From a virus (lineage: Duplodnaviria > Caudoviricetes): 64,000 nucleotides of DNA. The DNA lies in IMG/VR virus record IMGVR_UViG_3300033066_000360, positions 1 to 64,000 of that record. One strand, given 5' to 3'. This document shows positions 13,347 through 32,715 of the stretch, piece by piece. The notes under the pieces were generated by a model that worked only from the letters and a program-made list of their open reading frames with translations, had not been told where the DNA came from and ran no database searches. Every line of letters begins with the position of its first letter. The stretch's first letter is position 1. Position numbers and translations under genes: made by a program.

Positions 13347-14045
13347 ATGAGAACGTTTCTTGTGGGAGGTGCAGTTCGTGATAAGTTGATGGGCATCAAA
13401 CCCAAAGACTTGGACTTCGCTGTTGAGGCGGAGTCTTATGAGAAGATGAGGCAAGGTCTTTTGGATCAGGGATTCAAGATCTGGCTTGAGAGTCCTGCGT
13501 TCTTTACACTACGATGCTCTATTCCCAATGGGCATTGGGGCAGAGAGTACGGGAAAGACGCAGACTTTGTTCTGTGTCGGCGCGATGGGATCTACACCGA
13601 TGGGCGTAGGCCCGATAGCGTGGGAGTTGGGACCATTCTTGAAGATCTTAAGAGGCGAGACTTCACGATGAATGCAATGGCTATTGCGGAGGATGGCACA
13701 TTGCTTGATCCCCATGGCGGCAAGGGAGACTTGGAACTCAAGCTCATTCGCTTTGTGGGTAATCCTACTGAGCGTATCTTTGAGGATGGTTTGCGGGTGT
13801 TGAGAGCGCTCAGATTCAGCGTAACCAAAGAAATGAAATTCGCAGGAGCAACAAGGAGTGCTCTTGAGTCAGATGATGCTGCGCGTTGTTTGGCGCGAGT
13901 CGCAGACGAACGCATTTATGAGGAGTTGAAGAAGATGTTTGTCAAAACTCGCACATCCTTGTCCTTGCTGAATGAGTTCCCAAGGATTAGGCGTGTGTGC
14001 TTTCAGGGCAAGGTTCGCCTAATGCCCACAATGGAGACTGTATGA
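13347..14045 (+). CDS. cca: class II tRNA nucleotidyltransferase (CCA-adding enzyme-like), compact
   Basis: LVGGAVRD, DLDFAV, DLKRRDFTMNAMA, EDGLRVLRALRF, VADERIYEELKKM motifs. Confidence 0.9.
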   Translation: MRTFLVGGAVRDKLMGIKPKDLDFAVEAESYEKMRQGLLDQGFKIWLESPAFFTLRCSIPNGHWGREYGKDADFVLCRRDGIYTDGRRPDSVGVGTILEDLKRRDFTMNAMAIAEDGTLLDPHGGKGDLELKLIRFVGNPTERIFEDGLRVLRALRFSVTKEMKFAGATRSALESDDAARCLARVADERIYEELKKMFVKTRTSLSLLNEFPRIRRVCFQGKVRLMPTMETV

Positions 14046-17980: not shown

Positions 17981-17988
17981 GAGGATTT

Positions 17989-18363
17989 ATGTGGACACTG
18001 ATTTTCTGCAAGAAGGATGCTTGGGATAATCAAGAGGAGCGTGAGATAGCAAAAAGCAATCCTCATGTGCACAATGAATTTGAAGATATCCTGGAAATGG
18101 GAATAATCTGTAAAATTCAGTTGCATGTTTACCGGGCTGGTCGCGCAAGACTTGACCAGCCCAGTCATGCTCCAATGGAATGGAGTCATCCATATGTCCA
18201 GCGAACGGTCAGGGATCTCAAGAAAGATTACAAGGAGTCCATGAAGGATTTTATGTGGGCAGATTCTCAGGGATTTGCATCCGGGGATTTGGACTGTGAC
18301 AATGCATGGTATGAAATTAGAGATTCTAATGGAATACCTATTGACAGGTTCGTGCAGTTCTGA
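17989..18363 (+). CDS. hypothetical protein
   Basis: AGGAGG RBS then ATG 17989. Confidence 0.6.
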   Translation: MWTLIFCKKDAWDNQEEREIAKSNPHVHNEFEDILEMGIICKIQLHVYRAGRARLDQPSHAPMEWSHPYVQRTVRDLKKDYKESMKDFMWADSQGFASGDLDCDNAWYEIRDSNGIPIDRFVQF

Positions 18364-18369
18364 TACGAT
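18341..18369 (+). promoter_or_regulatory. sigma70-type promoter for the Y RNA array
   Basis: TTGACA-17 bp-TACGAT with extended -10 TGn; predicted +1 at 18376 coincides with the first Y RNA 5' end. Confidence 0.75.
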
Positions 18370-18375
18370 ACTAAA

Positions 18376-18461
18376 GGCGTGGTGTTAGGGATACCGCTAC
18401 TTCAAAAACTATCTTACAGGTTCTGCCGAAAGGCAAGCTGCGGTCCCGTAAATTTCCCGCC
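18376..18461 (+). ncRNA. Y RNA-like 1 (short type)
   Basis: GGCG-T-GG...CC-CGCC terminal helix, GGGATACCGC/GCGGTCCC second helix, TACTTC, TGCC-GAAA-GGCA hairpin. Confidence 0.7.
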
Positions 18462-18474
18462 GGAAAAGTAAAGT

Positions 18475-18607
18475 AGGGTGGTGTCAGTGGACGGTTACTT
18501 CACTTGTAATGACGAGTCCCAAGTTCGAATCTTGGCATCGCGGTGGAAACGCCCCGGTGTAGCTTAGTGGCAAAGCGCGAAAAATACTGTCTGCGTCCTT
18601 TCCCCCT
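18475..18607 (+). ncRNA. yrlA: Y RNA-like 2 (YrlA-like, tRNA mimic)
   Basis: AGGG-T-GG/CC-CCCT helix, TACTTC, T arm CCAAG-TTCGAAT-CTTGG, loop-closed acceptor stem, D arm TAGCTTAGTGGCAAAGC. Confidence 0.8.
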
Positions 18608-18620
18608 CAAAATGAATACA

Positions 18621-18759
18621 AGAAGTGGTGTTAGTGATCGGATACTTCATCCAAATCTTTTGGTCATTGGTTCAAATCCAATTTTCCCCGCTCTTGGGGA
18701 AATAGCTCAGCTTGGTAGAGCAAAGGACAAACAAGCCCGATTGCGATCATTTCCCTTCT
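18621..18759 (+). ncRNA. yrlA: Y RNA-like 3 (YrlA-like, tRNA mimic)
   Basis: AGAAG-T-GG/CC-CTTCT helix, TACTTC, T arm ATTGG-TTCAAAT-CCAAT, closed acceptor TTTCCCC/GGGGAAA, D arm TAGCTCAGCTTGGTAGAGC. Confidence 0.8.
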
Positions 18760-18772
18760 GAACAACAGAATA

Positions 18773-18859
18773 TGAGTGGTGCTAGTTCACTGTTACTTCA
18801 AAAGAATTAGGCTCTTTGCCGAAAGGCACGAAAAACAACAGTGGGCGCTCTTTCCCTCA
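18773..18859 (+). ncRNA. Y RNA-like 4 (short type)
   Basis: TGAG-T-GG/CC-CTCA helix, TTCACTGTT/AACAGTGGG helix, TACTTC, TGCC-GAAA-GGCA. Confidence 0.7.
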
Positions 18860-18871
18860 GAATGTAAATAC

Positions 18872-18948
18872 GCGGTGGTGTAGAGGACGGTTACTTCTAA
18901 CTTGAAAATGGATTGCCGAAAGGCTACCCGTTCTCGCTCTTTCCCCGC
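18872..18948 (+). ncRNA. Y RNA-like 5 (short type)
   Basis: GCGG-T-GG/CC-CCGC helix, GAGGACGG/CCGTTCTC helix, TACTTC, GCC-GAAA-GGC. Confidence 0.7.
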
Positions 18949-18956
18949 TAAATCTG

Positions 18957-18983
18957 AGGCTCTGCGAAAGCAGAGCCTTTTCT
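18957..18983 (+). terminator. terminator-like hairpin between Y RNAs and Ro60
   Basis: AGGCTCTGC-GAAA-GCAGAGCCT then TTTCT. Confidence 0.65.
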
Positions 18984-18996
18984 ATGGAGGTTACTC

Positions 18997-20397
18997 ATGG
19001 CTTCAATCAACAAGCGTGTAGTGTCAAAGGCTCCTGTTACCCATAATGGTGGACAGGCAGATCGAATCAGCAATTATGAAGCGCTTAAGCGCTCTGTTAT
19101 GACTGCAATGCTCGGAGAGAATAGTTTCTACGAGAGTGGCGAATCTTTGAAGGTTCGCATCATGGAACTGTCCAAGAAAGTGGATGCCATGAAGGTTGCG
19201 GAATTGGCGGTAGATGCTCGTGAGAACGGGAAGCTTCGCCACGTACCGCTCTGGTTGGCAGTATGTCTTGCTCGTAGGAGCAAGGAAATCAAGATCGCGC
19301 CACTCTTGGCGCGGATTATTCGTCGCCCAGATGAGATGGGTGAGTTTCTTGCTCTTCTCAAGGAAGCAAATGGCAGGGAAGTTCGTAAGCCATCTGGCGG
19401 CATCAAGCTTCCCTCACAGGTCCGCAAGGGTTTGGCGCTTTCTTTTGCTGGATTCAATGAATACCAGCTTGCAAAGTGGAAGGGTAACAGGGATCAGATT
19501 CGTCTGATTGATGTTCTCCGCATGGTTCGCCCAGTTCCCGACAATGAAGACATGGCGGCTCTCTGGAAGCGTCTCAAGGATGGCAAGCTAGCCCCACCAG
19601 ACACTTGGGAGCGTCGTCTCTCTGCGGGAGAGAAGAAGGAAAAGGTATGGACTGATCTCCTAAACGCTCCAAAGGACAAGGGACTTGGATACATGGCTCT
19701 CCTCATGAATCTACGAAACATGAAGAATGCCGGTGTTCCGAAGGATCTTGTTGCGGGGCAGTTGATTCCACGCGCTCGGAAGTCGTGGGCACTTCCATTC
19801 AGGTTCATTTCTGCAAGGGATGCTGTTCCTGAATGGAAGGACATTATTGACCTTGCAATGCAGGAGTCGGTAAAGGGATTGCCGCGTTTGATGGGTAAGA
19901 CCATTCTTCTTGTGGATCTTTCAGGAAGCATGGTTGGTCCAATCGTTGGTAAGAGCAAGCTGGATCGCCGTGATGCGGCTTGTGCTCTTGGCATTCTGGT
20001 TGATGGTGTTTGCGAAAATGCTGCGATCTACGGATTCAGCACAAATATCGCTCTCGCCAAGGGGCCAAAGAAGAATGCCAATCTTGCAGGTTTCGAGCTG
20101 TTTGACGCTATCCAGCGCTCAAATAGTGGTGGAACCAACGTTGGCTACTGCGTTGAAGCGGCGATTCGTGAGAATCCAGACGCAGATCGAATCATTGTCA
20201 TCACGGATGAACAGTCCAGTGATCGTGTGTCTTCTCCAAAGATGCGTGGTTACATGGTGAATGTTGCCAGCTACCAGAACGGTGTTGGTTACGGCGGCAA
20301 TTGGACTCATATCAATGGGTTCAGCGAAAACGTTTTGAGCTTCATTTCTGCTCTTGAGAATGGAGTTATCACAGGCACAGAGGATGAGGAGGAATAA
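18997..20397 (+). CDS. rsr: Ro60 / TROVE-domain RNA-binding protein with vWA domain
   Basis: THNGG, LRHVPLWL, FNEYQLAKW, TWE, YMALLMNLRN, LPFRF, VDLSGSM, GGTN, RIIVITDEQ. Confidence 0.92.
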   Translation: MASINKRVVSKAPVTHNGGQADRISNYEALKRSVMTAMLGENSFYESGESLKVRIMELSKKVDAMKVAELAVDARENGKLRHVPLWLAVCLARRSKEIKIAPLLARIIRRPDEMGEFLALLKEANGREVRKPSGGIKLPSQVRKGLALSFAGFNEYQLAKWKGNRDQIRLIDVLRMVRPVPDNEDMAALWKRLKDGKLAPPDTWERRLSAGEKKEKVWTDLLNAPKDKGLGYMALLMNLRNMKNAGVPKDLVAGQLIPRARKSWALPFRFISARDAVPEWKDIIDLAMQESVKGLPRLMGKTILLVDLSGSMVGPIVGKSKLDRRDAACALGILVDGVCENAAIYGFSTNIALAKGPKKNANLAGFELFDAIQRSNSGGTNVGYCVEAAIRENPDADRIIVITDEQSSDRVSSPKMRGYMVNVASYQNGVGYGGNWTHINGFSENVLSFISALENGVITGTEDEEE

Positions 20398-21155: not shown

Positions 21156-21734
21156 ATGAGTAGACTTTGGTTTCTAGGTGACGTACATGCAAAGTTTGAC
21201 AAAATGGAGCCTCTTGTCCGGAAAATAAAGGCTCCGATTATCCAAGTCGGAGATTTTGGTTTTGGCTTTGCGCCACTGCCAGAGCAGCCCAATAATCTTC
21301 GAGTTGTCTGTGGCAATCATGACAATAGAGGAGATACCTATGGGTGGGATAATGTGTATCGGCATTGGGATTATGACTTTGTTGCCGGAAAGCCCGTGTT
21401 CGTGATTTCGGGTGGCTATTCTGTTGATCGAGACAGGAGAACAATAGGCATAGATCTTTGGGAAGATGAAGAAATGAATCTCCCGATGATGCAGAGATGC
21501 CTTGACTACTATCGAAAAGTCAAGCCCAAGTTGTTGGTGAGTCATGAACCGCCAACATGGGTCAAAGAGAGTCTTGGATTTAAAGGATCTAGAACATCGG
21601 ACCTAATTCAAGCGTGTCTTGAGATCAGCAGTCCAGAACTTCATGTTTTTGGACATCTACACAAGTCTTTCCAGTGGGAAAGGAATGGGTGTCAATTTAA
21701 GTCTCTTGGAGAGCTTGAGTTGTGGCATCCCTAG
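21156..21734 (+). CDS. calcineurin-like metallophosphoesterase
   Basis: GDVH, VGDFG, GNHD, SHEPP, FGHLH. Confidence 0.85.
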   Translation: MSRLWFLGDVHAKFDKMEPLVRKIKAPIIQVGDFGFGFAPLPEQPNNLRVVCGNHDNRGDTYGWDNVYRHWDYDFVAGKPVFVISGGYSVDRDRRTIGIDLWEDEEMNLPMMQRCLDYYRKVKPKLLVSHEPPTWVKESLGFKGSRTSDLIQACLEISSPELHVFGHLHKSFQWERNGCQFKSLGELELWHP

Positions 21735-23661: not shown

Positions 23662-23668
23662 TCTTCAT

Positions 23669-23742
23669 GCCCTTGTAGCTCATCGGACCAGAGCAGGAAG
23701 TTTCTACCTTCAAGGCAGGGGGTTCAATTCCCTCCAAGGGTA
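23669..23742 (+). tRNA. tRNA-Arg(TCT)
   Basis: Cloverleaf; loop TT-TCT-AC; no CCA. Confidence 0.85.
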
Positions 23743-23757
23743 TCCATAGGAGGATAT

Positions 23758-24187
23758 ATGAATTTGTATTGCGGAACAATTGTTGGTCGGATTAATGGCG
23801 ATGTAAAGAAAGTTGTTTCTTGCTATCGACTGGCAAAAACAGAAGAGAAAGCAAAGGCAAGCATAGCCAAAGATTACAAGGATCTTGATGAATTGTCTAT
23901 TTGCATAGATCTCATTGATCCTGAAGTAATTCGCGCTTGGTACGAGAAGGTTGTTATCGAGCCTATCGGGGAGGGTCTAGATGTTTCCTGATCCAGATGT
24001 ATGGCGGTGGGGTAGAGATGACTCCGAACCACCGGACAATCCGTATAAACATTTAGAAGAAGAAGACGATGAAGATGGTGATCCTGATCTTTGGGAGGAT
24101 GAAGAGGAGTTGATTGTGGAAGGTGAGCCAGTAAACGAAATGGATTGGCTTATTTCTTATGTCTCTCTAGTGCATCATCGTCTATAA
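23758..24187 (+). other. two small hypothetical genes (23758-23991, 23981-24187 acidic)
   Basis: AGGAGG RBS; overlapping junction. Confidence 0.5.
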
Positions 24188-24207
24188 TGTTTCCAATCGG
24201 AAACAGT

Positions 24208-24290
24208 GCAACCATGGTGAAATGGCAGTCACAGCAGGCTTAGAACCTGCCGCCCTAAAAAGCGTGGGGGTTCAAGTCCCTCTGGTTGTA
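24208..24290 (+). tRNA. tRNA-Leu(TAG)
   Basis: GCAGG-CTTAGAA-CCTGC; long variable arm. Confidence 0.9.
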
Positions 24291-24401
24291 TATGCAGAGC
24301 AGGCACTCCTGTAGACACGGCGCTATGCAGAAGGTGGCTATACCGGTAGGATCCTACTGGGACGAGCGGAAGCGAGAGATACCTCCCATTCTCTCTTAAA
24401 T

Positions 24402-24483
24402 GCAAGTATGGCGGAATGGCATACGCGGGAGCCTGAGAAGCTCTGCTCGAAAGGGCGTGAAGGTTCGAGTCCTTCTATTTGCA
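24402..24483 (+). tRNA. tRNA-Leu(GAG)
   Basis: GGAGC-CTGAGAA-GCTCT; long variable arm. Confidence 0.9.
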
Positions 24484-24582
24484 CTGCATTCGATGGTGTC
24501 TGCGCGGAGTCCGGAATCATCTGGCAGAACTAGAGAACCGGCCCACAACATGGCCAAGTTAGTGGGGAATCCGTAAATTCAT

Positions 24583-24655
24583 GGAGAAGTAGCCCAACGG
24601 CAGAGGCAACAGTCTCAAGAACTGTTTAGTGAGAGTTCGAATCTCTCTTTCTCTA
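24583..24655 (+). tRNA. tRNA-Leu(CAA), short variable loop
   Basis: ACAGT-CTCAAGA-ACTGT. Confidence 0.85.
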
Positions 24656-24722
24656 CTGACCGCTCCTTGTGGTTTCTTTTTGTTTTGTAGCTTTTTGTTT
24701 TCCACAAGGGGATGGTCTCCAT

Positions 24723-24797
24723 GCAAGTGTGAGGCAACCGGCAGACCTGATACACTTAAAATGTGTCGTTCTATGGGTTCAAATCCCATCACTTGTA
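24723..24797 (+). tRNA. tRNA-Leu(TAA), short variable loop
   Basis: ATACA-CTTAAAA-TGTGT. Confidence 0.85.
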
Positions 24798-24814
24798 TCT
24801 AATATGAATATAAT

Positions 24815-24888
24815 GGGGAAATGCGCTAATGGTTAACGCGAACAATCTTATAAATTGTTGATTGAACGTTCAAGTCGTTCTTTCCCTA
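24815..24888 (+). tRNA. tRNA-Ile(TAT)
   Basis: ACAAT-CTTATAA-ATTGT. Confidence 0.85.
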
Positions 24889-25083
24889 CTACCACAAAAG
24901 AAGAACTTTTTTGTGTATATACGGTCAAGGTGGCTAATGTGTTGGTTGATAGCTGCGAGAGTCTGGCGAGCACTTTCAATTGGCATCCACTACGTGGCGT
25001 ATGTCGGACGGTGAGCATGGTCATGTGTTGACCCAGAAGTACAGCATGAATCAGCCGTGGGAAGCCGATAGATTCCCAAATAC

Positions 25084-25156
25084 ACACTGTTAACTCATCG
25101 GTCAGAGTGCCTTTCTTACAAATAGGAAGCAGGGGGTTCAATTCCCTCACAGTGTA
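25084..25156 (+). tRNA. tRNA-Val(TAC)
   Basis: Acceptor ACACTGT/ACAGTGT; loop CTTACAA. Confidence 0.88.
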
Positions 25157-25207
25157 TAGATGGTTAGTAGATATATCGCGCGTTAGGTATCGAAAGCCAT
25201 CTTTCAT

Positions 25208-25280
25208 GCTCTATTGGGCAAGCGGCCAAGCCACCTCTCCTTCAAAGAGGCAATCGTGGGTTCGAATCCCACATAGAGTA
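25208..25280 (+). tRNA. tRNA-Glu(TTC)
   Basis: CCTCT-CCTTCAA-AGAGG. Confidence 0.88.
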
Positions 25281-25378
25281 CTGTTCCTAGTGAGTCCAAG
25301 GTTCGGTAAGGAACACATTCACTTTCGGTTGAAAGTGGTGTAAAGCAGGAATCCGACTTCTCACGTTTCCTGCGCTAT

Positions 25379-25450
25379 GCTTCGGAAGCCGAAGGGATAG
25401 GCGCTACTCTGTCTAAGTAGTTGAAGTGGGTTCAAATCCCATCCGGGGCG
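25379..25450 (+). tRNA. tRNA-Asp(GTC)
   Basis: CTACT-CTGTCTA-AGTAG. Confidence 0.88.
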
Positions 25451-25557
25451 CTAAATAGTAGGAGGATCAAAATAACGCTTGTTCTCGGTCTAAAATGACC
25501 AACCACTACTATGATGAAGATGTATTACTTGTAAGAGTGTCAACAATACGTCTTTAT

Positions 25558-25631
25558 GCTTCTTTCGGCAAGCGGCTTAAGCCACTTGGTTCTCAACCAA
25601 GAGATCGCCGGTTCGAATCCGGCAAGAAGCA
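25558..25631 (+). tRNA. tRNA-Glu(CTC)
   Basis: CTTGG-TTCTCAA-CCAAG. Confidence 0.9.
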
Positions 25632-25731
25632 CTTGGAGTGATGGATATAACTCCAGCGTAACAGCCATGGATGAAGCGTGTCCACGCATAGATTCTAGGT
25701 ATCATGTAGAATACGTGAAGTTCTACAAAGT

Positions 25732-25802
25732 AGCAGGGTAGAGTAGCGGCCACTCACCGGCCTCATAAGCCGTTTACACGGGTTCGATTCCCGTTCCTGC
25801 CA
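25732..25802 (+). tRNA. tRNA-Met(CAT), possibly initiator-like
   Basis: CGGC-CTCATAA-GCCG; 1:72 mismatch (A:C) as in initiator tRNAs. Confidence 0.82.
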
Positions 25803-25871
25803 TCACTATCTCTATGGCGCACATGAGATAGCGTCCCGTAAACGGGGGACCGTACGTGAACTGGTCATTAT

Positions 25872-25945
25872 CTGGGTATAGCTCAATCTGGAAGAGCACT
25901 TGCTTTGGGAGCAAGACGTTAGGGGTTCAAATCCCTTTACCTAGA
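25872..25945 (+). tRNA. tRNA-Pro(TGG) copy 1
   Basis: CTTGC-TTTGGGA-GCAAG. Confidence 0.9.
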
Positions 25946-26098
25946 CTCAGTTCATGTTTGGATTGGCTCGCCCGATTAAGCTACTAGTGGCTGTAATCGT
26001 ACCCCTCAACAGGGTAAAAGCGTCCCCTTCTGAATCCCCTGAACTGCCGTAAGAAAACTTGTTGAGAGTTTTCGTGGAGTACGTTAAAAGCTCCATAT

Positions 26099-26173
26099 AT
26101 AGGTGTATATCAGTCTGGTCAGATTGCTCCCCTTGGAAGGGAGTGGGCACAGGTTCAAATCCTGTCACCTATA
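26099..26173 (+). tRNA. tRNA-Pro(TGG) copy 2
   Basis: CTCCC-CTTGGAA-GGGAG. Confidence 0.87.
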
Positions 26174-26275
26174 CTCTGATGAATTTCGCTGAATCGTCTA
26201 AGGACGAAGGAGCGGGAAATCGAAGACGTAATCAATGTGTCATAGCATCGAGAGGCATACGATAAGTGCCAAAAC

Positions 26276-26358
26276 GGAAGGACGGCAATAGGCGTAGTAC
26301 ACTGTCTTGAAAACAGAAAGCCGTAAAAGGCTTGTGGGTTCGACTCCCACTCCTTCCT
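26276..26358 (+). tRNA. tRNA-Ser(TGA)
   Basis: CTGT-CTTGAAA-ACAG; long variable arm AAGCC/GGCTT. Confidence 0.85.
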
Positions 26359-26461
26359 CTGGATCCCTTGCTTTGGGCATGTAGCTACTAGGCGGCGGCA
26401 AGAAGTGGTCTGGATACATCTAGCTAATATAAGCTCTATGGCCCAATATGGTGTATCTTAT

Positions 26462-26547
26462 GGAAAGGTGACGGAATCTGGTAATCGTTCCTCTTTGCTA
26501 AAGAGTGAGTCCGTAAGGACACGCAGGTTCAAATCCTGTCCTTTCCT
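26462..26547 (+). tRNA. tRNA-Ser(GCT)
   Basis: CTCT-TTGCTAA-AGAG; long variable arm. Confidence 0.88.
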
Positions 26548-26551
26548 CTGT

Positions 26552-26624
26552 GCCGCTCTAGCTCAAATGGTAGAGCACTAGTCTGAAGAACTGGGGGCAA
26601 TGGGATCGTTACCCATGGGCGGCT
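26552..26624 (+). tRNA. tRNA-Phe(GAA)
   Basis: CTAGT-CTGAAGA-ACTGG; atypical T loop ATCGTTA. Confidence 0.8.
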
Positions 26625-26629
26625 TGTAT

Positions 26630-26713
26630 GAGCAGAAGTCAGATACGGTTTGCTTGTGACTGTCTGTAAAACAGTTCCCTTCGGGGGTGGGGGTTCGAAT
26701 CCCTCTCTGCTCA
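26630..26713 (+). tRNA. tRNA-Tyr(GTA)
   Basis: ACTGT-CTGTAAA-ACAGT; variable arm CCC-TTCG-GGG. Confidence 0.87.
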
Positions 26714-26714
26714 C

Positions 26715-26743
26715 TTGACAAATCTCCAAATGGAGAGTATTGT
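26715..26743 (+). promoter_or_regulatory. sigma70 promoter inside the tRNA array
   Basis: TTGACA-17 bp-TATTGT, just upstream of tRNA-Asn. Confidence 0.65.
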
Positions 26744-26753
26744 GTTTGTATGT

Positions 26754-26826
26754 TCCCGTGTAGCTCAGGGGTAGTAGCAGCGCACTGTTAATGCGCCAGT
26801 CGTTGGTTCAAATCCAGCCATGGGAG
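26754..26826 (+). tRNA. tRNA-Asn(GTT)
   Basis: CGCA-CTGTTAA-TGCG. Confidence 0.9.
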
Positions 26827-26860
26827 CCTATTTCCGACTGGAAATAAATAGGAGGAATAA

Positions 26861-27292
26861 ATGAAGAGGTTACTTGTGTTATGGGTCGCGCTCGGCTTGA
26901 TGTTTGCTGCATGTGGTGCGCCTACTGGCGATAGAAGCTATGGTGTTGCCAAGAGGCTTGGAGAGGGGCGGCATATCGTGTCGAATGTCGAGAAGCTCAA
27001 CAATGGCATGAATGTGATCTGGTTCTTTGGAGAGAACGATTACGTTTACTGTACGTTTGATGACAAATTGGCTGCAATGGCTCGTGCAATCAAGAACGAT
27101 CCGGGTCCAAATGACGGAATTGCTCTGTATGAATACAGAGATTTCATCACTGGAGATCCTGAGTTTGGGCTAGATCCATCTGGTTATTACTGGTGGTCTA
27201 CTTGTGGGGTTGGAATTACTGCCACATACAAGTCCAAGCTAATGTCCATCAAGCCATTGCGTCCACTAGTGAATGAAGTGGTTTTGAGATAA
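26861..27292 (+). CDS. putative lipoprotein
   Basis: MKRLLVLWVALGLMFAAC-G signal peptide and lipobox; AGGAGG RBS. Confidence 0.65.
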   Translation: MKRLLVLWVALGLMFAACGAPTGDRSYGVAKRLGEGRHIVSNVEKLNNGMNVIWFFGENDYVYCTFDDKLAAMARAIKNDPGPNDGIALYEYRDFITGDPEFGLDPSGYYWWSTCGVGITATYKSKLMSIKPLRPLVNEVVLR

Positions 27293-27325
27293 CTAAATAG
27301 TCGGGATGTTACAATCCCGGCATAC

Positions 27326-27399
27326 GCTAATGTAGCTCAATCCGGCAGAGCAACTCCTTTGTAACGAGAAGGTTGGAGGTTCAATTCCTCTCATTAGCT
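27326..27399 (+). tRNA. tRNA-Thr(TGT)
   Basis: Acceptor GCTAATG/CATTAGC; loop TTTGTAA; imperfect anticodon stem. Confidence 0.85.
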
Positions 27400-27403
27400 T
27401 TGT

Positions 27404-27458
27404 GGGTCTGGATGTAAAGGCTGTCCTAGGCGTGTCGGTTCAACTCCGATCAGATCCA
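27404..27458 (+). ncRNA. 55-nt tRNA-like RNA without an anticodon arm, G3-U70/A73
   Basis: Acceptor GGGTCTG/CAGATCC-A and T arm GTCGG-TTCAACT-CCGAT with only 23 nt between them. Confidence 0.6.
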
Positions 27459-27464
27459 CTAAAT

Positions 27465-27537
27465 GGGGACACATGTACCAAGGGGGCGACTGATACTTGC
27501 AATATCGGTGTGAGGAGTTCGATTCTCCTTGTTTCCA
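27465..27537 (+). tRNA. tRNA-Ala(TGC)
   Basis: CTGATA-CTTGCAA-TATCGG; G3-U70 pair. Confidence 0.85.
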
Positions 27538-27541
27538 CTAT

Positions 27542-27614
27542 GTATGCAGACTCAAACGGTGATGAGAACACTCTGATAAGGTGTCCGTGTGAGGTTCAAT
27601 TCCTCTTGCATACA
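27542..27614 (+). tRNA. tRNA-Ile(GAT)
   Basis: ACACT-CTGATAA-GGTGT. Confidence 0.82.
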
Positions 27615-27637
27615 CTACAGCCCTACCGGGCTAATAA

Positions 27638-27709
27638 GCACATATAGCTCAGTGGAAGAGTTAGCGCCTTCGAAGCGCGGGGTCGGGAGTTCGAATCTCT
27701 CTATGTGCT
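27638..27709 (+). tRNA. tRNA-Arg(TCG)
   Basis: GCGC-CTTCGAA-GCGC. Confidence 0.88.
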
Positions 27710-27797
27710 CTGGGAGAGGGACAAGCGGTGTTTGACTGTTCCTCCTAGCGGTAAGAGATCGTGTTCGGCGTAAGTTGTTCGGTCCCTCTCCCTTTAT

Positions 27798-27870
27798 GCG
27801 CGTGAAGCTCAACGGAAGAGCATTTCCCTGCGAAGGAAAAGGTTTAAGGGTTCAATTCCCTTGACGCGCT
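27798..27870 (+). tRNA. tRNA-Arg(GCG)
   Basis: TTTCC-CTGCGAA-GGAAA. Confidence 0.85.
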
Positions 27871-28015
27871 TAGCGTAAGGATGCATACCTGCGCTAACCT
27901 TGGGTAGTGAAGGGTTGTGCACTACTGCTATCTGGTGACGCTACAATACCAGCGCCTCTTGCCGACGAAAGACGCAAGGAGTTCTTGCTGGTTCTCTCCA
28001 AAAGAATCAGGTGAT

Positions 28016-28088
28016 GCGGATATGGCTCAGTTGGTAGAGCAGGATCTTGCCAAGATTCAGGTCGCGGGTTCAAGTCCCGCTATTCGCT
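28016..28088 (+). tRNA. tRNA-Gly(GCC)
   Basis: GGATC-TTGCCAA-GATTC. Confidence 0.92.
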
Positions 28089-28161
28089 TGAGCGGTTCGA
28101 CTTTTAGTTTTCCAAAGGTAAATCTAGGTCGTCCGCTCTTTTATGTTAAAAGGAGGTCGGA

Positions 28162-28680
28162 ATGAAGAATATCTTTGTCATCAGCGATACGCACTTCGGT
28201 CACGAGCTTATGACCACCGTACTGACAGATCAAGGCAAGCGTCTCCGGCCTTGGAATACGACTGAGGAGATGGATGAAGTTCTCATTGCCAATTGGAATT
28301 CTGTTGTTACTCCAAGTGACAAGGTTTACCATCTGGGAGACGTATTCTTCCCCCGTAAAGGGAGAATGCTCTTGTCTCGACTCAATGGAGATAAGGTTTT
28401 GATTCGTGGGAACCATGATGGTCATCCAATCAAGGATTACCTAATGGGATTCAGGGACATCCGGGCCTTACATGTGTTGGACGGAGTAATCATGACTCAT
28501 GTTCCAATCCATGAACAGAGTCTTTCCCGCTGGAAAGGCAACATTCATGGACATTTGCACGAGCATCGAATTCTTGATCGGCGTGGATTGCCTGATCCGC
28601 GTTATACTACTGTCTGTGTGGAACACATCAACTACACTCCTAAAGAGTGGTCGGTGGTTCGTAGTGAACTGGTAGCTTAG
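28162..28680 (+). CDS. calcineurin-like metallophosphoesterase
   Basis: SDTHFGH, YHLGDV, RGNHD, THVP, NIHGHLH. Confidence 0.9.
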   Translation: MKNIFVISDTHFGHELMTTVLTDQGKRLRPWNTTEEMDEVLIANWNSVVTPSDKVYHLGDVFFPRKGRMLLSRLNGDKVLIRGNHDGHPIKDYLMGFRDIRALHVLDGVIMTHVPIHEQSLSRWKGNIHGHLHEHRILDRRGLPDPRYTTVCVEHINYTPKEWSVVRSELVA

Positions 28681-28738
28681 TGGCTAAAGCAGCATGCTCT
28701 TAACATGCCTATCGTGGGTTCAAATCCCACCCGGTTCT
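28666..28738 (+). tRNA. tRNA-Lys(CTT)
   Basis: GCATG-CTCTTAA-CATGC; 5' end overlaps the phosphoesterase stop codon. Confidence 0.88.
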
Positions 28739-28739
28739 T

Positions 28740-28811
28740 GTACTCGTGGTGTAATGGTTAGCACGATAGGCTGTGGCCCTGTTAGAGCCGGTTCAAATCC
28801 GGTCGAGCACT
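28740..28811 (+). tRNA. tRNA-His(GTG)
   Basis: ATAGG-CTGTGGC-CCTGT. Confidence 0.85.
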
Positions 28812-28827
28812 TAAATAGGAGGATTAA

Positions 28828-29615
28828 ATGGAAACAATGTGGGTTATTAAGCGGGATCGAGCCATTGAAGGTTCATCCGATATTATCTTTATTTGCAAGA
28901 CGGAACATACAGCAAGGTATCTTGTTGAAATACTGAAAGGAGCCGAGCAAAAAGCTCGCAAGTTCAATAAGACTCAATCTGTTACCATTGATAAGACTTC
29001 ATGGACAGTTAGTAGAGGAGATTCGTTTGAATACGACAGTTATCCAGTTTATTAGAGATATAGTTCTTGTGTTTGTTATCACTCTCCCGTTCTTTGCTAT
29101 CGGGCTTCTAATACAAATGGTTCATAAATTCAGGAGGAAATAATGGAAATTACAAATACAACCTACATCATTACATTCATCACAAAGGGTGGGTCTTATA
29201 ACACCACAATGTTTGATCCTGTTGATGGTGGTTATCAAGCAATTGATAAGTTTATCGCTGCCTACATGAAGGCAAACCCAAGTATTGTTGAACATACAAA
29301 GAGAATGGTCATTGGAACACCGGTTTTTAGAGAGCGTGCCATTGGAAAGGACTTCAATGATGTTTATGAGGTGGTCAAGTGAAAACAGCGGTGCAGTATC
29401 TCAATGCCGCAGATCGAGTATTCAAAATACAACAGGACTACAGGTTTGTCGGAGTTGACTATGAGCGAAGAGTTGGTCTAATCACAGAGGCAAAGAATCT
29501 TGCCGCCGAGTTTGGACTAGATCAGTCCATATACTTGGCGAATTGTACTCCAGAAGAGTATTTCCTTGGATTGGAAAGACTTCTTGGGAGAGCGGCAGTA
29601 GACGCTGTAGAATAA
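28828..29615 (+). other. small hypothetical genes (28828-29055, 29143-29382, 29379-29615)
   Basis: AGGAGG RBS before the first two; overlapping junction for the third. Confidence 0.55.
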
Positions 29616-29624
29616 AAGAATAGT

Positions 29625-29696
29625 GGGTTTGTAGCTCAATGGCAGAGCGGGAGACTTTTAACCTCCGCGTCGTAGGTTCGATTCCTACCAGACTCA
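29625..29696 (+). tRNA. tRNA-Lys(TTT)
   Basis: GGAG-A-CTTTTAA-C-CTCC. Confidence 0.88.
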
Positions 29697-29712
29697 TATA
29701 AAATTGAATAAA

Positions 29713-29784
29713 GGGTGTGAAGCGTCATGGCGATGCACTGAACTCCAAATCCAGCAACAGCAGGTTCGATTCCTGCCACGCCCG
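29713..29784 (+). tRNA. tRNA-Trp(CCA)
   Basis: CTGAA-CTCCAAA-TCCAG; acceptor GGGTGTG/CACGCCC. Confidence 0.87.
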
Positions 29785-29887
29785 TAGAGACTAGTGGAGG
29801 TTTCCAACCATCACGAATGCTCGAAGAGAAGCTTGGCTCTTAATAATTCAAGCAGTTCCGTGGGGTCAGCTTCAAGACTCCACAAAT

Positions 29888-29960
29888 GGCTACTTGGCCA
29901 AGTGGAAAGGCGTCTCCCTGCAAAAGAGATACCGCGCTGGTTCGATTCCAGCAGTAGCCT
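29888..29960 (+). tRNA. tRNA-Cys(GCA)
   Basis: TCTC-C-CTGCAAA-A-GAGA; U73. Confidence 0.88.
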
Positions 29961-30121
29961 CTTGGGGTGGATGAGAGCGAAAGCTTAAGGATCCTCAACT
30001 GTATATCCAGAACAGTGATTATGGACGTTTCCGAAGCCCGATAGCTCGGACGAGAGCCGTTGCTCGTAATAATGTCGGGAGTTGTTATGGGACCATTCTC
30101 TCTAAAATGAACGGCCCATAC

Positions 30122-30192
30122 GCGAATATGGCCGATAGGCTAGGCTCCACGCCTCCAACGTGGCTAGACGGGTTCGATTCCTGTTATTCGCT
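30122..30192 (+). tRNA. tRNA-Gly(TCC)
   Basis: CCACG-CCTCCAA-CGTGG. Confidence 0.85.
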
Positions 30193-30411
30193 TTTGCCGC
30201 ACATGTTCAGAGTCAATTCCACACCTAGGCAATATGGATGCGATATGACATGCTTACGCAATCCTTCTCTCTCTTCGGATCAGTAAGTAGGGACGGACAC
30301 CAGCACCGGCAAGGCTAACGCTGGATTTTGCTAGTTACTACAAATTAGCTCTTATCCTTTCACTGTTGTAAAGGACGCTTTGGCCATTGTGCAACGTTAA
30401 CAATGGCACAT

Positions 30412-30483
30412 GATCTAGAAGCTCAATGGACGAGCAAGATTTTCCTAAAATCTGGGCTGTGGGTTCGAGTCCCATCTAGATCT
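30412..30483 (+). tRNA. tRNA-Arg(CCT)
   Basis: AGATT-TTCCTAA-AATCT. Confidence 0.9.
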
Positions 30484-30555
30484 TAGCCAACCGCGTGGTT
30501 GGTGAAGAGGGTAGAGGTTTTTATTCAGGGTTATCTTTCCAGCTGCCCGTGGTGA

Positions 30556-30849
30556 TTGAGCCTTTACCCTCTTAGTCTTTTTCAGGAGGAACTTATGAAT
30601 GACAGAACATGGGCATTTCTAGAAGCAATCAAGAACATGGCGCTTAGCATTATGCCGCTATATGTCGCGTTTGAGAATGATAAATTCCGCTTAGATCTTG
30701 TCGTAGAGATGAGACAAATGGAACAAACCCTCAAAAAGCTACATGCCAGTATCAAGAAGTCGGGGACTTGGGGGGCATCCGAGAGGGAACAGTACATTAC
30801 TATCGACAAGAGAATGGATGAGATACTGTATATCGGTGAAAGGGGCTAG
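30556..30849 (+). CDS. hypothetical protein
   Basis: Likely start at MNDRTW after GGAGG; its stop codon overlaps the 5' strand of mini-tmRNA A. Confidence 0.5.
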   Translation: MSLYPLSLFQEELMNDRTWAFLEAIKNMALSIMPLYVAFENDKFRLDLVVEMRQMEQTLKKLHASIKKSGTWGASEREQYITIDKRMDEILYIGERG

Positions 30850-30911
30850 AAAGGCATTCGACAGCGAGAGTGGGTTCAAACGGCCCAGTCTTATACCCGA
30901 TACTTTCGTTG

Positions 30912-31008
30912 GGGGAAGAAGGGTTTCGACGGTAAGTGATGGCATAAATGGACTTGTCTAAAACCCAGATGATCTTATCGGACGCAGGTTCAACTCCTGC
31001 CTTCTCCA
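30912..31008 (+). ncRNA. ssrA: mini-tmRNA B (97 nt, tRNA-like domain only)
   Basis: GGGGAAG-AAGGGTTTCGAC 5' end; P2 GGTAAG/CTTATC; 3' end GGACGCAGGTTCAACTCCTGCCTTCTCCA closely matches the tmRNA 3' consensus; G3-U70. Confidence 0.72.
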
Positions 31009-31412
31009 TATAAAGAGGAATATGTTGCAATTATTTTAAGCGCAAATTCATACGCATCTTTAGCGCGTATTCCTGATTTTGGGGGCTTTGTCCAAAGCTC
31101 AAGATTATCTGGAGAATTGTCATCACGAATGCCATTCTTATGATGAACCGTTTCTTCCGGAAGCAGATATCTTCCAATCATGGATTCCATGACCAAGATG
31201 TGTTCAAAAATATAATGTCCCTTTCGGGGATGTCCGGGTGGACGAAGAATGAGCTTGTAGCCCTTTTTATGCAAAGATCCTTTGCTTTTCTTTCTCTGAA
31301 AACTGGCTCTTTCTAGGTTAAAGCATCTAATACACGACTTGGCTCTAATTCCGCATTCCTGTCCACAAATCGGACAAGTCTTTTTGCGATTCCAACTCTT
31401 TTGTTTATTCAT
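30990..31412 (-). CDS. HNH homing endonuclease with N-terminal zinc finger, antisense to the RNA array
   Basis: CPICG...CIRC, EHILVMESMIGR, VHHKNGIRDDNSPDNLELW. Confidence 0.9.
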   Translation of the reverse strand: MNKQKSWNRKKTCPICGQECGIRAKSCIRCFNLERASFQRKKSKGSLHKKGYKLILRPPGHPRKGHYIFEHILVMESMIGRYLLPEETVHHKNGIRDDNSPDNLELWTKPPKSGIRAKDAYEFALKIIATYSSLYGEGRS

Positions 31413-31473
31413 ATAGGGAATTATACACGGATTAATGGGTTTGATTCCCCGCTAGTCCACTAATAGGAGGAAC

Positions 31474-31995: not shown

Positions 31996-32004
31996 AATGG
32001 CCGT

Positions 32005-32077
32005 AGTCCTATGGTCAAATGGTATGACGGAATGCTCTGAACATTCAAGTCGTTGGGTTCAATTCCCCGTGGGACTG
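32005..32077 (+). tRNA. tRNA-Gln(CTG)
   Basis: GAATG-CTCTGAA-CATTC. Confidence 0.85.
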
Positions 32078-32228
32078 CTATAGGAGATAAATATGTTTCA
32101 ATGTATCGGAAGTGATGCGTATTGCTTGGCTGCAATCAAGCTTACGGAAAACATCTTTTGGGGCGTGGTTCTTGTAGTGGTTCTCTTCGGAGTTGGCTAC
32201 TGGTTCTACAGACTCATAAAGGATTTGT

Positions 32229-32301: not shown

Positions 32302-32329
32302 TAAATAGGAGGAAATATGTATAAGATCT

Positions 32330-32707: not shown

Positions 32708-32715
32708 GGAGGACT

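What the first reader, a model, noticed from the sequence alone, without database searches (positions are those of the whole stretch)
18341..20397. Phage-encoded array of five Y-RNA-like genes with a non-canonical stem, directly upstream of Ro60
Seen: five tandem units of 77-139 nt share N4-5-T-GG-TG(T/C) at the 5' end and TTT-CC-N4-5 at the 3' end. The outer pairs differ in every copy yet always pair (GGCG/CGCC, AGGG/CCCT, AGAAG/CTTCT, TGAG/CTCA, GCGG/CCGC), and each has an invariant TACTTC after a second helix. A TTGACA-17-TGnTACGAT promoter puts +1 on the first unit. Two units carry tRNA-like domains and three carry a GCC-GAAA-GGC hairpin. Known: bacterial Ro60 (Rsr) loci usually encode one or two Y RNAs (YrlA, sometimes YrlB). 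Inference: a five-member, two-class Y RNA set with a bulged-U helix is a new Y RNA family that could route one Ro60 to different partners or act as decoys.
Basis: partly seen in the sequence, partly recalled or inferred. Interest (0 to 1): 0.9.

Follow-up and report, generated by a model that had tools for sequence, protein, structure and literature searches.

The report
Phage Ro60 with five Y-RNA genes
An uncultured phage carries five small RNA genes in a row in front of its Ro60 gene; they are real, conserved Y-RNA-type partners, but similar rows of 2-8 such genes lie unannotated beside Ro60 in many phages, so this is one more example, not a new family.

Summary
Five units (86, 133, 139, 87 and 77 nt) lie between a strong sigma-70-type promoter and a terminator hairpin, 18 nt upstream of an intact Ro60 (TROVE + vWA) gene.

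All five are recovered end to end by covariance models built only from units of other phages. U2 and U3 score 76 and 67 bits, U5 and U4 49 and 35-37 bits, and U1 is weak at 16 bits. The shared two-helix "handle" shows strong covariation in two sets of 26 and 34 units: 94% of cells are paired against 63-67% in shuffles.

- **The handle is not special to this phage.** The bulged U, GG/CC pair, UG(U/C) loop and UUACUUC recur in Xanthomonas, Caulobacter, Brevundimonas, Microcystis, Rhizobium, Streptomyces and crAss-like phages and in many IMG/VR contigs.
- **It grades into the published motif.** GGUG and literal GGCGAAG units sit in the same arrays.
- **Five is ordinary.** Arrays hold 2 to 8 units.

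U2 and U3 have YrlA architecture but score below Rfam's threshold (38 and 22 bits against 69). The three short units match no Rfam family.

Expression and Ro60 binding could not be tested. This scan has already noted phage Ro60 RNA arrays on other DNA (632 notes). Verdict: new variant of a known kind, moderate interest.

The parts
18341..18369 (+). Sigma-70-type promoter: TTGACA (18341-18346), 17-nt spacer, extended -10 TG-n-TACGAT (18362-18369). Predicted +1 at about 18376, the first base of U1.
   Evidence: 10 of 12 matches, TG present; sequence. It overlaps the stop codon of ORF 17974-18363.
18376..18461 (+). U1, a short Y-RNA-like unit of 86 nt. It has the handle (GGCG-U-GG ... CC-CGCC; CUACUUC) and an interior GCCGAAAGGC hairpin at 18425-18434.
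   Evidence: Fold. Model R1, built from other phages, matches it end to end but weakly (16.3 bits, E 0.04).
18475..18607 (+). U2, a YrlA-type unit of 133 nt. It has the handle, UUACUUC, a hairpin with an anticodon-loop-like CUUGUAA, a T arm (18523), a GAAA-capped acceptor-like stem and a D arm (18560).
   Evidence: Model R2, built from other phages: 76.4 bits, E 1e-14, full length. Rfam YrlA 22.5 bits and tRNA 23.1 bits, both below threshold. ARAGORN makes no call.
18621..18759 (+). U3, a YrlA-type unit of 139 nt. It has the handle, AUACUUC, a V hairpin, a T arm (18670), a 7-bp closed acceptor-like stem and a D arm (18703).
   Evidence: R2: 66.9 bits, E 1e-12. Rfam YrlA 38.3 bits, E 9e-7, below the gathering score of 69.
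18773..18859 (+). U4, a short unit of 87 nt, with the handle and a GCCGAAAGGC hairpin at 18818-18827.
   Evidence: R1: 35.2 bits, E 1.5e-7. R2: 37.2 bits. Fold.
18872..18948 (+). U5, a short unit of 77 nt, with the handle and a GCCGAAAGGC hairpin at 18915-18924.
   Evidence: R1: 48.6 bits, E 2e-11. R2: 48.8 bits. Fold.
18956..18984 (+). Terminator-like hairpin (10 bp, GAAA loop) followed by a U-rich tail. It probably sets the ratio of Y RNAs to Ro60 mRNA by partial read-through.
   Evidence: RNAfold gives -20.3 kcal/mol. The simple terminator scan did not list it. The read-through function is inferred.
18997..20397 (+). Ro60 / Rsr-type protein of 466 aa (TROVE ring plus vWA with a MIDAS DLSGS motif), preceded by the ribosome-binding site GGAGG at 18986-18990.
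   Evidence: Nearest solved structure is Thermus phage phiLo Ro60 (9KOP / 9L5Y), E 2e-18 over residues 15-456.
13347..14045 (+). Context: tRNA nucleotidyltransferase (CCA-adding enzyme), part of the same RNA-maintenance island.
   Evidence: Pfam PolyA_pol 6e-24; PHROG tRNA nucleotidyltransferase 1e-50.
21156..21734 (+). Context: metallophosphoesterase. This could be an RNA end-healing enzyme, but that is inference.
   Evidence: Pfam Metallophos 1.8e-10; PHROG 1649.
23668..32302 (+). Context: array of 33 tRNA genes downstream on the same strand.
32680..33699 (+). Context: RNA ligase at the end of the tRNA array.
   Evidence: Pfam RNA_ligase PF09414, 3.3e-10.

Best explanation
The locus is a phage Ro60 / Y-RNA module. 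One host-type promoter drives a ~610-nt transcript that holds five Y-RNA-type units separated by 12-13 nt A-rich spacers.

Each unit folds locally into a constant 'handle':
- a 4-5 bp terminal stem;
- a bulged U;
- a G-G/C-C pair;
- an internal loop, UG(U/C)U(A)G opposite a U-rich strand ending in UUU;
- a 7-8 bp helix;
- single-stranded (U/A/C)UACUUC.

The handle is the docking site for the Ro60 ring encoded just downstream. The interior of each unit is a variable module. In U2 and U3 it is a circularly permuted tRNA mimic (YrlA type). In U1, U4 and U5 it is a short segment with a GAAA-capped hairpin.

Host nucleases probably cut in the spacers, and Ro60 binding probably protects the mature RNAs. 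The hairpin after U5 probably stops most transcripts, so Ro60 mRNA arises by read-through and the RNAs outnumber the protein.

By analogy with Deinococcus/Salmonella Rsr and with Thermus phage phiLo Ro60, the RNPs probably tether or gate a host 3'-5' exoribonuclease (PNPase). They would do so within a phage RNA-maintenance island holding a CCA-adding enzyme, a phosphoesterase, 33 tRNAs and an RNA ligase.

Shown here: the anatomy, conservation, covariation and linkage to Ro60. Inferred: transcription, processing, Ro60 binding and partner recruitment.
For: - **Anatomy.** Five units of one design lie inside one promoter-terminator frame, immediately 5' of an intact Ro60 gene.
- **Recognition by outside models.** R1 was built from 4 short units of Xanthomonas and Microcystis phages and IMG/VR locus L005. 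It finds U5, U4 and U1 at exactly my coordinates and nothing else real in 64 kb. R2 was built from 10 long units of Xanthomonas, Brevundimonas and Caulobacter phages. It finds U2 (76.4 bits) and U3 (66.9 bits) full length, plus U5 and U4; the next hit is 21.8 bits.
- **Covariation of the handle.** In 26 units, 94.2% of cells pair against 62.6% in shuffles, 13 of 14 pairs show compensatory change, and the score is 0.854 against 0.223 (0 of 500 shuffles reach it); slid controls give 0.12-0.21. A second set of 34 units, none used to build the model, gives 93.9% against 67.2% and 0.733 against 0.214. RNAalifold predicts de novo on the long units the outer stem, helix 2, T arm and acceptor-like stem, with 22 of 26 pairs compensatory.
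- **Linkage to Ro60.** All 11 IMG/VR relatives found through the protein carry such units beside Ro60 on the same strand. A DNA-pattern search blind to Ro60 returned 80 loci. 26 of them have a Ro60 homologue within a few hundred nt, and 15 of the 17 loci with R1 hits carry Ro60.
- **YrlA architecture of U2 and U3.** They run T arm, closed acceptor-like stem, D arm, with YUAY after the helix (PMC4201824).
- **Precedent.** Polycistronic Y RNAs lie upstream of rsr in M. smegmatis and D. radiodurans. Thermus phage phiLo has two Yrl RNAs upstream of its Ro60; they bind it and host PNPase.
Against: - There is no RNA evidence.
- No binding data exist for this Ro60.
- None of the five units has the literal published motif GNCGAA/CGAA. 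They have GGUGUU, GGUGUC, GGUGCU and GGUGUA.
- Rfam YrlA scores are far below the gathering score.
- The terminal stems are short (4-5 bp plus 2). In the minimum-free-energy fold of the whole 610-nt precursor only U3 keeps its terminal stem.
- U1 is a weak match (16.3 bits).
- Two contigs (L071, L073) have handle units without a Ro60 gene on the fetched contig.
Confidence: 0.8

Rival explanations
1. The units are decayed or rearranged tRNA genes, relics of tandem tRNA duplication at the edge of the phage tRNA island. They would have no dedicated link to Ro60.
For: - U2 gives a sub-threshold tRNA hit (23.1 bits) that uses the handle 5' strand as acceptor and D region.
- GenBank annotators called overlapping units tRNA-Thr (Xanthomonas 10KY502B), tRNA-Arg(tct) (Gordonia VanLee) and tRNA-Arg(cct) (Streptomyces GiJojo).
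- The handle's GGUGUAG resembles the end of a tRNA acceptor strand plus U8-A9-G10.
- A 33-tRNA array lies 5 kb downstream.
Against: - Three of the five units have no tRNA-like part at all yet keep the handle.
- The handle covaries and is conserved across distant phage groups.
- The units track Ro60 rather than tRNA arrays, for example in 43-kb Xanthomonas phages whose only annotated tRNA in the stretch examined overlaps a unit.
- ARAGORN calls none of them.
- A tRNA origin of YrlA is already the published view and does not contradict a Y-RNA function.
Confidence: 0.06
2. The handle is read by something other than Ro60. It could be a processing signal for a host or phage RNase that releases the interior modules, or a site for another phage protein. 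Its proximity to Ro60 would then reflect only a shared RNA-maintenance island.
For: - Two contigs have units without Ro60 on the fetched contig.
- Regular 12-13 nt spacers suggest a processing register.
- The literal CGAA motif is missing in all five units.
- An 830-aa protein with no Pfam or PHROG match lies just upstream.
Against: - Ro60 is the one neighbour common to loci whose other genes differ, whether the array lies upstream or downstream of it. I did not tabulate neighbouring genes systematically.
- The stem / internal-loop / stem layout matches what phiLo Ro60 binds.
- GGUG units coexist with GGCGAAG units in the same arrays.
Confidence: 0.08
3. The region is a long structured 5' leader that regulates Ro60 expression in cis (attenuator or riboswitch-like), not a set of separate RNAs.
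For: - A terminator-like hairpin lies 18 nt before the Ro60 start.
- No separate promoter for Ro60 was found between it and the ATG.
Against: - Five repeats of one complete module with different interiors are not what a leader needs.
- In crAss-like, Microcystis and several IMG/VR phages the units lie downstream of Ro60.
- Known homologues (YrlA/YrlB, Yrl1/Yrl2) are trans-acting RNAs.
Confidence: 0.03

Closest known systems
YrlA-type bacterial and phage Y RNAs (Rfam RF02553; Chen et al. 2014, PMC4201824)
   Same: - Encoded on the same strand next to Ro60/Rsr.
- A terminal stem carries a conserved purine-rich motif, followed by a second helix and YUAY.
- The interior then runs V hairpin, T arm, closed acceptor-like stem and D arm, as in U2 and U3.
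- More than one Y RNA per locus, made from one precursor.
- Already reported in 22 phages.
   Different: - The window units score 38 and 22 bits against a gathering score of 69.
- The published motif GNCGAAN0-1G is replaced by GGUG(U/C)(U/A).
- A bulged U lies 5' of the GG pair.
- UUACUUC is nearly invariant here.
- Three of the five units lack the tRNA-like domain altogether.
Thermus phage phiLo Ro60 with Yrl1/Yrl2 (PMC12135203; PDB 9KOP, 9L5Y)
   Same: - It is the closest solved protein (E 2e-18).
- Its Y-RNA-like genes lie upstream of the phage Ro60.
- The RNAs have a stem / internal bulge / stem layout with the recognition motif in the bulge.
- It offers a tested model in which the RNP engages host PNPase.
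   Different: - phiLo has two RNAs, not five.
- Its motif is the literal CGAA.
- The paper's text never uses the term tRNA-like (0 hits in a term search).
- Single U substitutions in CGAA weakened binding only 3-4 fold, so a UGUU-type loop may still bind.
Polycistronic Y-RNA loci of Deinococcus radiodurans (RNAs a-e, Yrn1/Yrn2) and Mycobacterium smegmatis (YrlA + YrlB)
   Same: - Several small RNAs lie upstream of rsr and are processed from one precursor.
- One class carries tRNA-like modules and the other is a simple hairpin.
   Different: Those RNAs differ from each other in design. Here all five share one strict handle and regular spacing, so the array looks like a cassette system.
Unannotated arrays beside Ro60 in cultured phages
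   Same: - They have the same handle and the same mix of long and short units.
- They are detected by, or were the source of, models R1 and R2.
- Unit counts: Xanthomonas 10KY502B and relatives 5, Brevundimonas vB_BpoS 5, Caulobacter CcrPW/CcrColossus 8, Rhizobium RHph_Y65 7, Streptomyces GiJojo at least 5, and crAss cr106_1 about 4 (the last two counted partly by eye or by a heuristic scan).
   Different: - The interiors differ. The GCCGAAAGGC hairpin of the window's short units was not seen in the others.
- Loop letters differ: GGCG in the Caulobacter group and UUGCGA in the Rhizobium group.
- Terminal stems are longer (8 bp or more) in the Caulobacter and Brevundimonas phages.
Metazoan Y RNAs
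   Same: - The 5' and 3' ends pair.
- A conserved G-G-pyrimidine-rich 5' strand (GGUCCGA) with a bulged nucleotide is bound by Ro60.
- Several paralogues (hY1, 3, 4, 5) share the stem but differ in the loop.
   Different: - The bulge is a C placed 3' of the GGUC, not a U placed 5' of the GG.
- Metazoan Y RNAs have no tRNA-like module.
- They are separate Pol III genes, not a polycistronic array.

Membership tests
Y RNA (Ro60-associated small RNA, broad sense) | Encoded next to a Ro60/Rsr orthologue on the same strand (bacterial and phage members) | tested here: met
   The array ends 48 nt before the start of a TROVE + vWA_Ro60 protein.
Y RNA (Ro60-associated small RNA, broad sense) | 5' and 3' ends pair into a stem that carries a conserved Ro60-recognition element | tested here: met
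   The terminal stem and GG/CC pair covary. Pairs 1-4 take 3-5 pair types each and 94% of cells are paired. The conserved loop sits between two helices.
Y RNA (Ro60-associated small RNA, broad sense) | Physically bound by Ro60 and stabilised by it | not testable with these tools
   Needs RIP, EMSA or a structure.
Y RNA (Ro60-associated small RNA, broad sense) | Accumulates as a discrete small RNA | not testable with these tools
YrlA (Rfam RF02553) | Score at or above the Rfam gathering threshold (69 bits) | tested here: not met
   U3 scores 38.3 bits and U2 22.5 bits; U1, U4 and U5 have no hit. The best cultured-phage unit of the same handle type scores 55.9 bits.
YrlA (Rfam RF02553) | Permuted tRNA-like domain: T arm, closed acceptor-like stem, D arm | tested here: met
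   Met for U2 and U3 only. Not met for U1, U4 and U5.
YrlA (Rfam RF02553) | GNCGAAN0-1G motif near the 5' end (Chen 2014) | tested here: not met
   The literal motif is absent from all five units. At the aligned position they have GGUGUUAG, GGUGUCAG, GGUGUUAG, GGUGCUAG and GGUGUAG, where the Microcystis phage unit and an L046 unit have GGCGAAG. Homology of position is inferred, at about 65%.
YrlA (Rfam RF02553) | Conserved YUAY after the stem, opening the V region | tested here: met
   CUAC, UUAC, AUAC, UUAC and UUAC in U1 to U5. U3's first letter is A, not a pyrimidine.
tRNA | Cloverleaf detected by ARAGORN, or Rfam tRNA at or above 29 bits | tested here: not met
   ARAGORN makes no call in 18341-18996. 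The best Rfam tRNA score is 23.1 bits, on U2.

The most novel reading that the evidence does not exclude
Phage Ro60 arrays may be a cassette system. One constant handle would load any of several interchangeable cargo modules onto a single Ro60 ring, and the cargo would decide what the particle does. tRNA-mimic cargos (U2 even carries an anticodon-loop-like CUUGUAA) could act as decoys or sensors for host anticodon nucleases and tRNA-directed defences. Alternatively they could recruit the phage's own CCA-adding enzyme and RNA ligase to damaged tRNAs. GAAA-hairpin cargos would address a different partner. That would make Ro60/Y RNA a programmable counter-defence or tRNA-repair hub, not only a PNPase adaptor.
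Probability: 0.12. Interest if true: 0.8.

Novelty: new variant of a known kind. Interest (0 to 1): 0.45.

Why it matters
Ro60/Y-RNA particles are conserved from bacteria to humans, where Ro60 is a major lupus and Sjogren autoantigen. What the variable parts of Y RNAs do is still poorly understood.

Phage arrays give a natural comparison set: one strictly conserved, covarying handle joined to many different interiors, next to one Ro60. It can be used to separate the Ro60-binding determinants from the effector modules.

This window adds a clean five-unit example with its own promoter and terminator, inside a tRNA and RNA-repair island. In practical terms:
- The Rfam YrlA model misses this phage branch.
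- The short units have no Rfam family.
- GenBank annotates none of the units examined as ncRNA, and in three phages a tRNA call (tRNA-Thr, tRNA-Arg) overlaps a unit.

Models R1 and R2 could seed a proper family. On its own merits this locus is one more member of a recurrent, largely unannotated class, not a new kind of system.

Tried and rejected
- **Rfam at gathering thresholds.** Nothing was found in the array. At E-value thresholds only two weak YrlA hits appeared. A 28-bit CC3552 hit merely reflects the GAAA hairpin plus the terminator.
- **Rfam's own alignment.** It places the units' second helix on YrlA helix 1. I judge this a probable mis-registration, because units in other phages carry the literal GGCGAAG at the outer position and YUAY follows the second helix. 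The alternative is that CGGUUACUU corresponds to CGAAUGCUU, and it is not excluded.
- **MAFFT alignments of short units.** They were off by one column at the 3' end, so I seeded R1 from only four sequences that were in register.
- **R1 with filters off.** It could not span the 100-nt interiors of U2 and U3. This was solved with R2.
- **DNA pattern scan of IMG/VR.** By my rough estimate many of the more than 115 matches are chance, since only 15 bases are specified. 26 of 80 fetched loci have Ro60 nearby, so I used the scan only as a Ro60-blind sampling of loci.
- **Whole-array MFE fold.** It does not keep most terminal stems. I treat this as a caveat, not as evidence of absence, because repeated handles can cross-pair in silico.
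- **Reviews.** Sim et al. 2020 and Boccitto & Wolin 2019 are not held, and the supplementary tables of Chen 2014 are not held. I therefore could not see how many YrlA copies were listed for CcrColossus.
- **Nucleotide search of GenBank phages.** No close relative of this phage was found.


Full report
**What is there.**

The stretch 18341-18996 holds no long ORF consistent with coding. It contains five units of one design:

| Unit | Coordinates | Length |
|---|---|---|
| U1 | 18376-18461 | 86 nt |
| U2 | 18475-18607 | 133 nt |
| U3 | 18621-18759 | 139 nt |
| U4 | 18773-18859 | 87 nt |
| U5 | 18872-18948 | 77 nt |

- Each unit starts with 4-5 variable bases, then U, GG, UG(U/C). It ends with UUU, CC and the complement of the first 4-5 bases.
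- Each has a second helix followed by (C/U/A)UACUUC.
- The composite motif occurs five times in the window and in the whole 84-kb virus record, always on the + strand.
- Folded alone, every unit gives the same outer stem, bulged U, GG/CC pair and second helix.
- Spacers are 13, 13, 13 and 12 nt and A-rich.
- The promoter TTGACA-17-TGnTACGAT (10 of 12 matches, extended -10) places +1 at or near the first base of U1.
- A 10-bp GAAA-capped hairpin (-20 kcal/mol) with a U-rich tail follows U5.
- Eighteen nt later, behind GGAGG, starts a 466-aa protein with TROVE and Ro60-type vWA domains and an intact MIDAS motif.
- Its nearest solved relative is the Ro60 of Thermus phage phiLo.

**Surroundings.**

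The record is a phage: it has an SPP1-type portal, a DnaB helicase and Rad52. The array sits in an RNA-maintenance island:
- CCA-adding enzyme, 13347-14045
- Ro60 module
- metallophosphoesterase, 21156-21734
- 33 tRNA genes, 23668-32302
- a 100-nt tmRNA-like element at 30912-31011
- RNA ligase, 32680-33699

This recalls the bacterial rsr-yrlBA-rtcBA RNA-repair operon.

**Is it a conserved RNA family?**

Eleven IMG/VR relatives found through the Ro60 protein (38-45% identity) all carry 2-3 or more similar units beside Ro60 on the same strand. The 96 GenBank phage records with a homologue include Xanthomonas, Caulobacter, Brevundimonas, Rhizobium, Microcystis, crAss-like, Streptomyces and Gordonia phages. 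In every one I opened except Ralstonia phage RsoM2USA, where I found no unit, the unannotated gap next to Ro60 holds an array:

| Phage or contig | Units |
|---|---|
| Caulobacter CcrPW | 8 |
| Rhizobium RHph_Y65 | 7 |
| IMG/VR L032 | 6 |
| Xanthomonas 10KY502B | 5 |
| Brevundimonas Papperlapapp | 5 |
| Streptomyces GiJojo | at least 5 (by eye) |
| crAss cr106_1 (downstream of Ro60) | about 4 (heuristic scan) |
| IMG/VR L060 | 4 |
| several other contigs | 2-3 |

I then built two covariance models without any window sequence.
- **R1** has 63 positions and 14 pairs, from four short units of other phages. It hits U5 (48.6 bits, E 2e-11), U4 (35.2 bits) and U1 (16.3 bits, weak) at exactly my coordinates, and nothing else real in 64 kb.
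- **R2** has 130 positions, from ten long units of cultured phages. Its structure was predicted de novo by RNAalifold, with 22 of 26 pairs compensatory. It hits U2 (76.4 bits, E 1e-14) and U3 (66.9 bits, E 1e-12) full length, plus U5 and U4. The next hit is a tRNA T arm at 21.8 bits.
- R2 also reaches actinophage units in Gordonia VanLee and Streptomyces GiJojo. This ties the family to phage groups related to those in which YrlA was first reported.

Covariation of the handle is strong.
- In 26 units, 94.2% of cells pair against 62.6% in shuffles, 13 of 14 pairs show compensatory changes, and the score is 0.854 against 0.223. Slid controls give 0.12-0.21.
- A further 34 units from contigs found by a Ro60-blind DNA pattern give 93.9% against 67.2% and 0.733 against 0.214.
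- These alignments were fitted to the model structure and so lean towards it. The slid controls and the de novo RNAalifold result argue that the signal is real.

**Link to Ro60.**

Of 80 loci returned by the pattern TGGTG-N7-10-CGGTTACTTC, 26 have a Ro60 homologue within a few hundred nt on the same strand. By my rough estimate most of the rest are chance matches of a 15-base pattern. Of the 17 loci with R1 hits, 15 carry Ro60. Two short contigs, L071 and L073, have units but no Ro60 on the piece held.

**How 'non-canonical' is the stem?**

Not very.
- The bulged U is present in 57 of 60 aligned units, and the second G-C pair in essentially all of them. Set A7 was ascertained with TGGTG, so it over-represents GGUG.
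- At the columns where the window has GGUGUAG, GGUGCUAG or GGUGUUAG, the Microcystis phage unit has GGCGAAG, the literal published motif GNCGAAN0-1G.
- Contig L046 has a GGUGAAG unit and a GGCGAAG unit in one array. L060 and L032 mix GGUG and GGCG units.
- Caulobacter phages use GGCGUAG, Streptomyces phage GiJojo uses UGCGUAG, and the Rhizobium phage uses UUGCGAA.

So the window's loop is most simply a drifted form of the known Ro60-recognition motif. It lies in an internal loop between two helices, as in phiLo Yrl2, where single U substitutions in CGAA cost only 3-4 fold in affinity. UUAC after the second helix fits the conserved YUAY of YrlA.

Rfam's own alignment instead puts the second helix plus AUACUU on YrlA's first helix plus AUGCUU. 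I favour the first mapping at about 65%, but the tools cannot settle it. Either way, (C/A)GGUUACUUC is the most widely conserved element and is a second candidate contact.

**Mechanism (inferred).**
- One transcript runs from the promoter and the units fold locally.
- Host nucleases cut in the A-rich spacers.
- Ro60 docks on the handle.
- The terminator limits read-through into Ro60, so the RNAs are in excess.
- The interiors differ. Two are permuted tRNA mimics and three are short modules with a GNRA hairpin. They presumably address different partners or gate the ring differently, as proposed for bacterial and human Y RNA paralogues.
- PNPase tethering is the tested precedent.
- U3's exactly 7-bp acceptor-like stem recalls M. 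smegmatis YrlA, which is cut by RNase P and receives CCA. The phage encodes its own CCA-adding enzyme. This is a lead, not a finding.

**Rivals.**
- **tRNA relics.** This fails for the three units that lack tRNA parts, and for the covarying handle.
- **A handle read by another factor.** Possible but less economical, since Ro60 is the neighbour common to the loci I examined.
- **A cis-acting leader.** This does not fit arrays that lie downstream of Ro60 in other phages.

**Known or new?**

Already published:
- phage Ro60 genes and phage YrlA RNAs (22 phages);
- two or more Y RNAs per locus made from one precursor;
- two classes, tRNA-like and hairpin;
- a phage Ro60 bound to two upstream Yrl RNAs (PMC4201824, PMC12135203).

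I found no paper describing arrays of five to eight units with a strict common handle, or the short handle-only units. The two main reviews and the supplementary tables of Chen 2014 were not available to me. Rfam does not capture this branch.

This scan has flagged phage Ro60 RNA arrays repeatedly on other DNA: 632 notes in about 545 genomes, with arrays of 4-9 units. Those are unchecked notes, but my own results on GenBank phages show directly that the pattern is common.

**Verdict.** The feature is real and well supported. It is a new variant, or member, of a known kind, and of moderate interest.

Noticed in passing
window 30912-31011 (+): A 100-nt element inside the tRNA array matches Rfam tmRNA above threshold (57.7 bits against a gathering score of 47), but only through the tRNA-like ends; the mRNA-like middle is missing. 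ARAGORN does not call it. A narrower rescan gave only a 17-bit partial match to the 3' T-arm and acceptor end. It may be a phage mini-tmRNA or tRNA-like domain.
   Followed up: partly
window 13347-14045, 21156-21734, 23668-32302, 32680-33699: The Ro60 module lies in an RNA-maintenance island: a CCA-adding enzyme, a metallophosphoesterase, 33 tRNA genes that cover all 20 amino acids by ARAGORN's calls, and an RNA ligase (PF09414). All are on the + strand.
   Followed up: partly
window 15488-17980 (+) and 17974-18363 (+): An 830-aa ORF and a 129-aa ORF directly upstream of the array have no Pfam or PHROG match. The array promoter overlaps the stop codon of the 129-aa ORF.
   Followed up: no
L017 1295-1362 (Xanthomonas phage 10KY502B); L145 1045-1116 (Gordonia phage VanLee); L146 1254-1328 (Streptomyces phage GiJojo): GenBank tRNA annotations (tRNA-Thr, tRNA-Arg(tct), tRNA-Arg(cct)) overlap full-length Y-RNA-type units found by R2. 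These 'tRNAs' use the handle 5' strand as acceptor and D region, and are probably mis-calls or alternative folds.
   Followed up: partly
window 18496-18520 (U2); L017 about 1318-1340: The hairpin in the V position of U2 has a 7-nt loop, CUUGUAA, identical to that of Xanthomonas phage unit 5 and shaped like a tRNA-Thr(UGU) anticodon loop. Caulobacter CcrPW unit 6 has CUGUUAA (Asn-like). The handle's GGUGUAG also resembles the end of a tRNA acceptor strand plus U8-A9-G10. This suggests the units arose from tandem tRNA genes.
   Followed up: no
L071 4987-5225 (-); L073 2473-2532 (-): Good R1 matches (38-52 bits) lie on short IMG/VR contigs with no Ro60 gene in the piece held. One lies near a large terminase gene and the other near an SMC/AAA protein. 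Ro60 may be elsewhere in those genomes, or the handle may occur without it.
   Followed up: partly
L046, L060, L032 (IMG/VR contigs): Single arrays mix handle variants: GGUGAAG with GGCGAAG, GGUGUAG with GGCGUAG, GGCGCAG and GGCGUAAG. One Ro60 evidently tolerates C or U at that position.
   Followed up: yes
window 7814-8317 (+); 60417-61316 (-): An HNH/NUMOD4 homing-endonuclease-like ORF, and a protein with collagen triple-helix repeats (probably a tail fibre).
   Followed up: no
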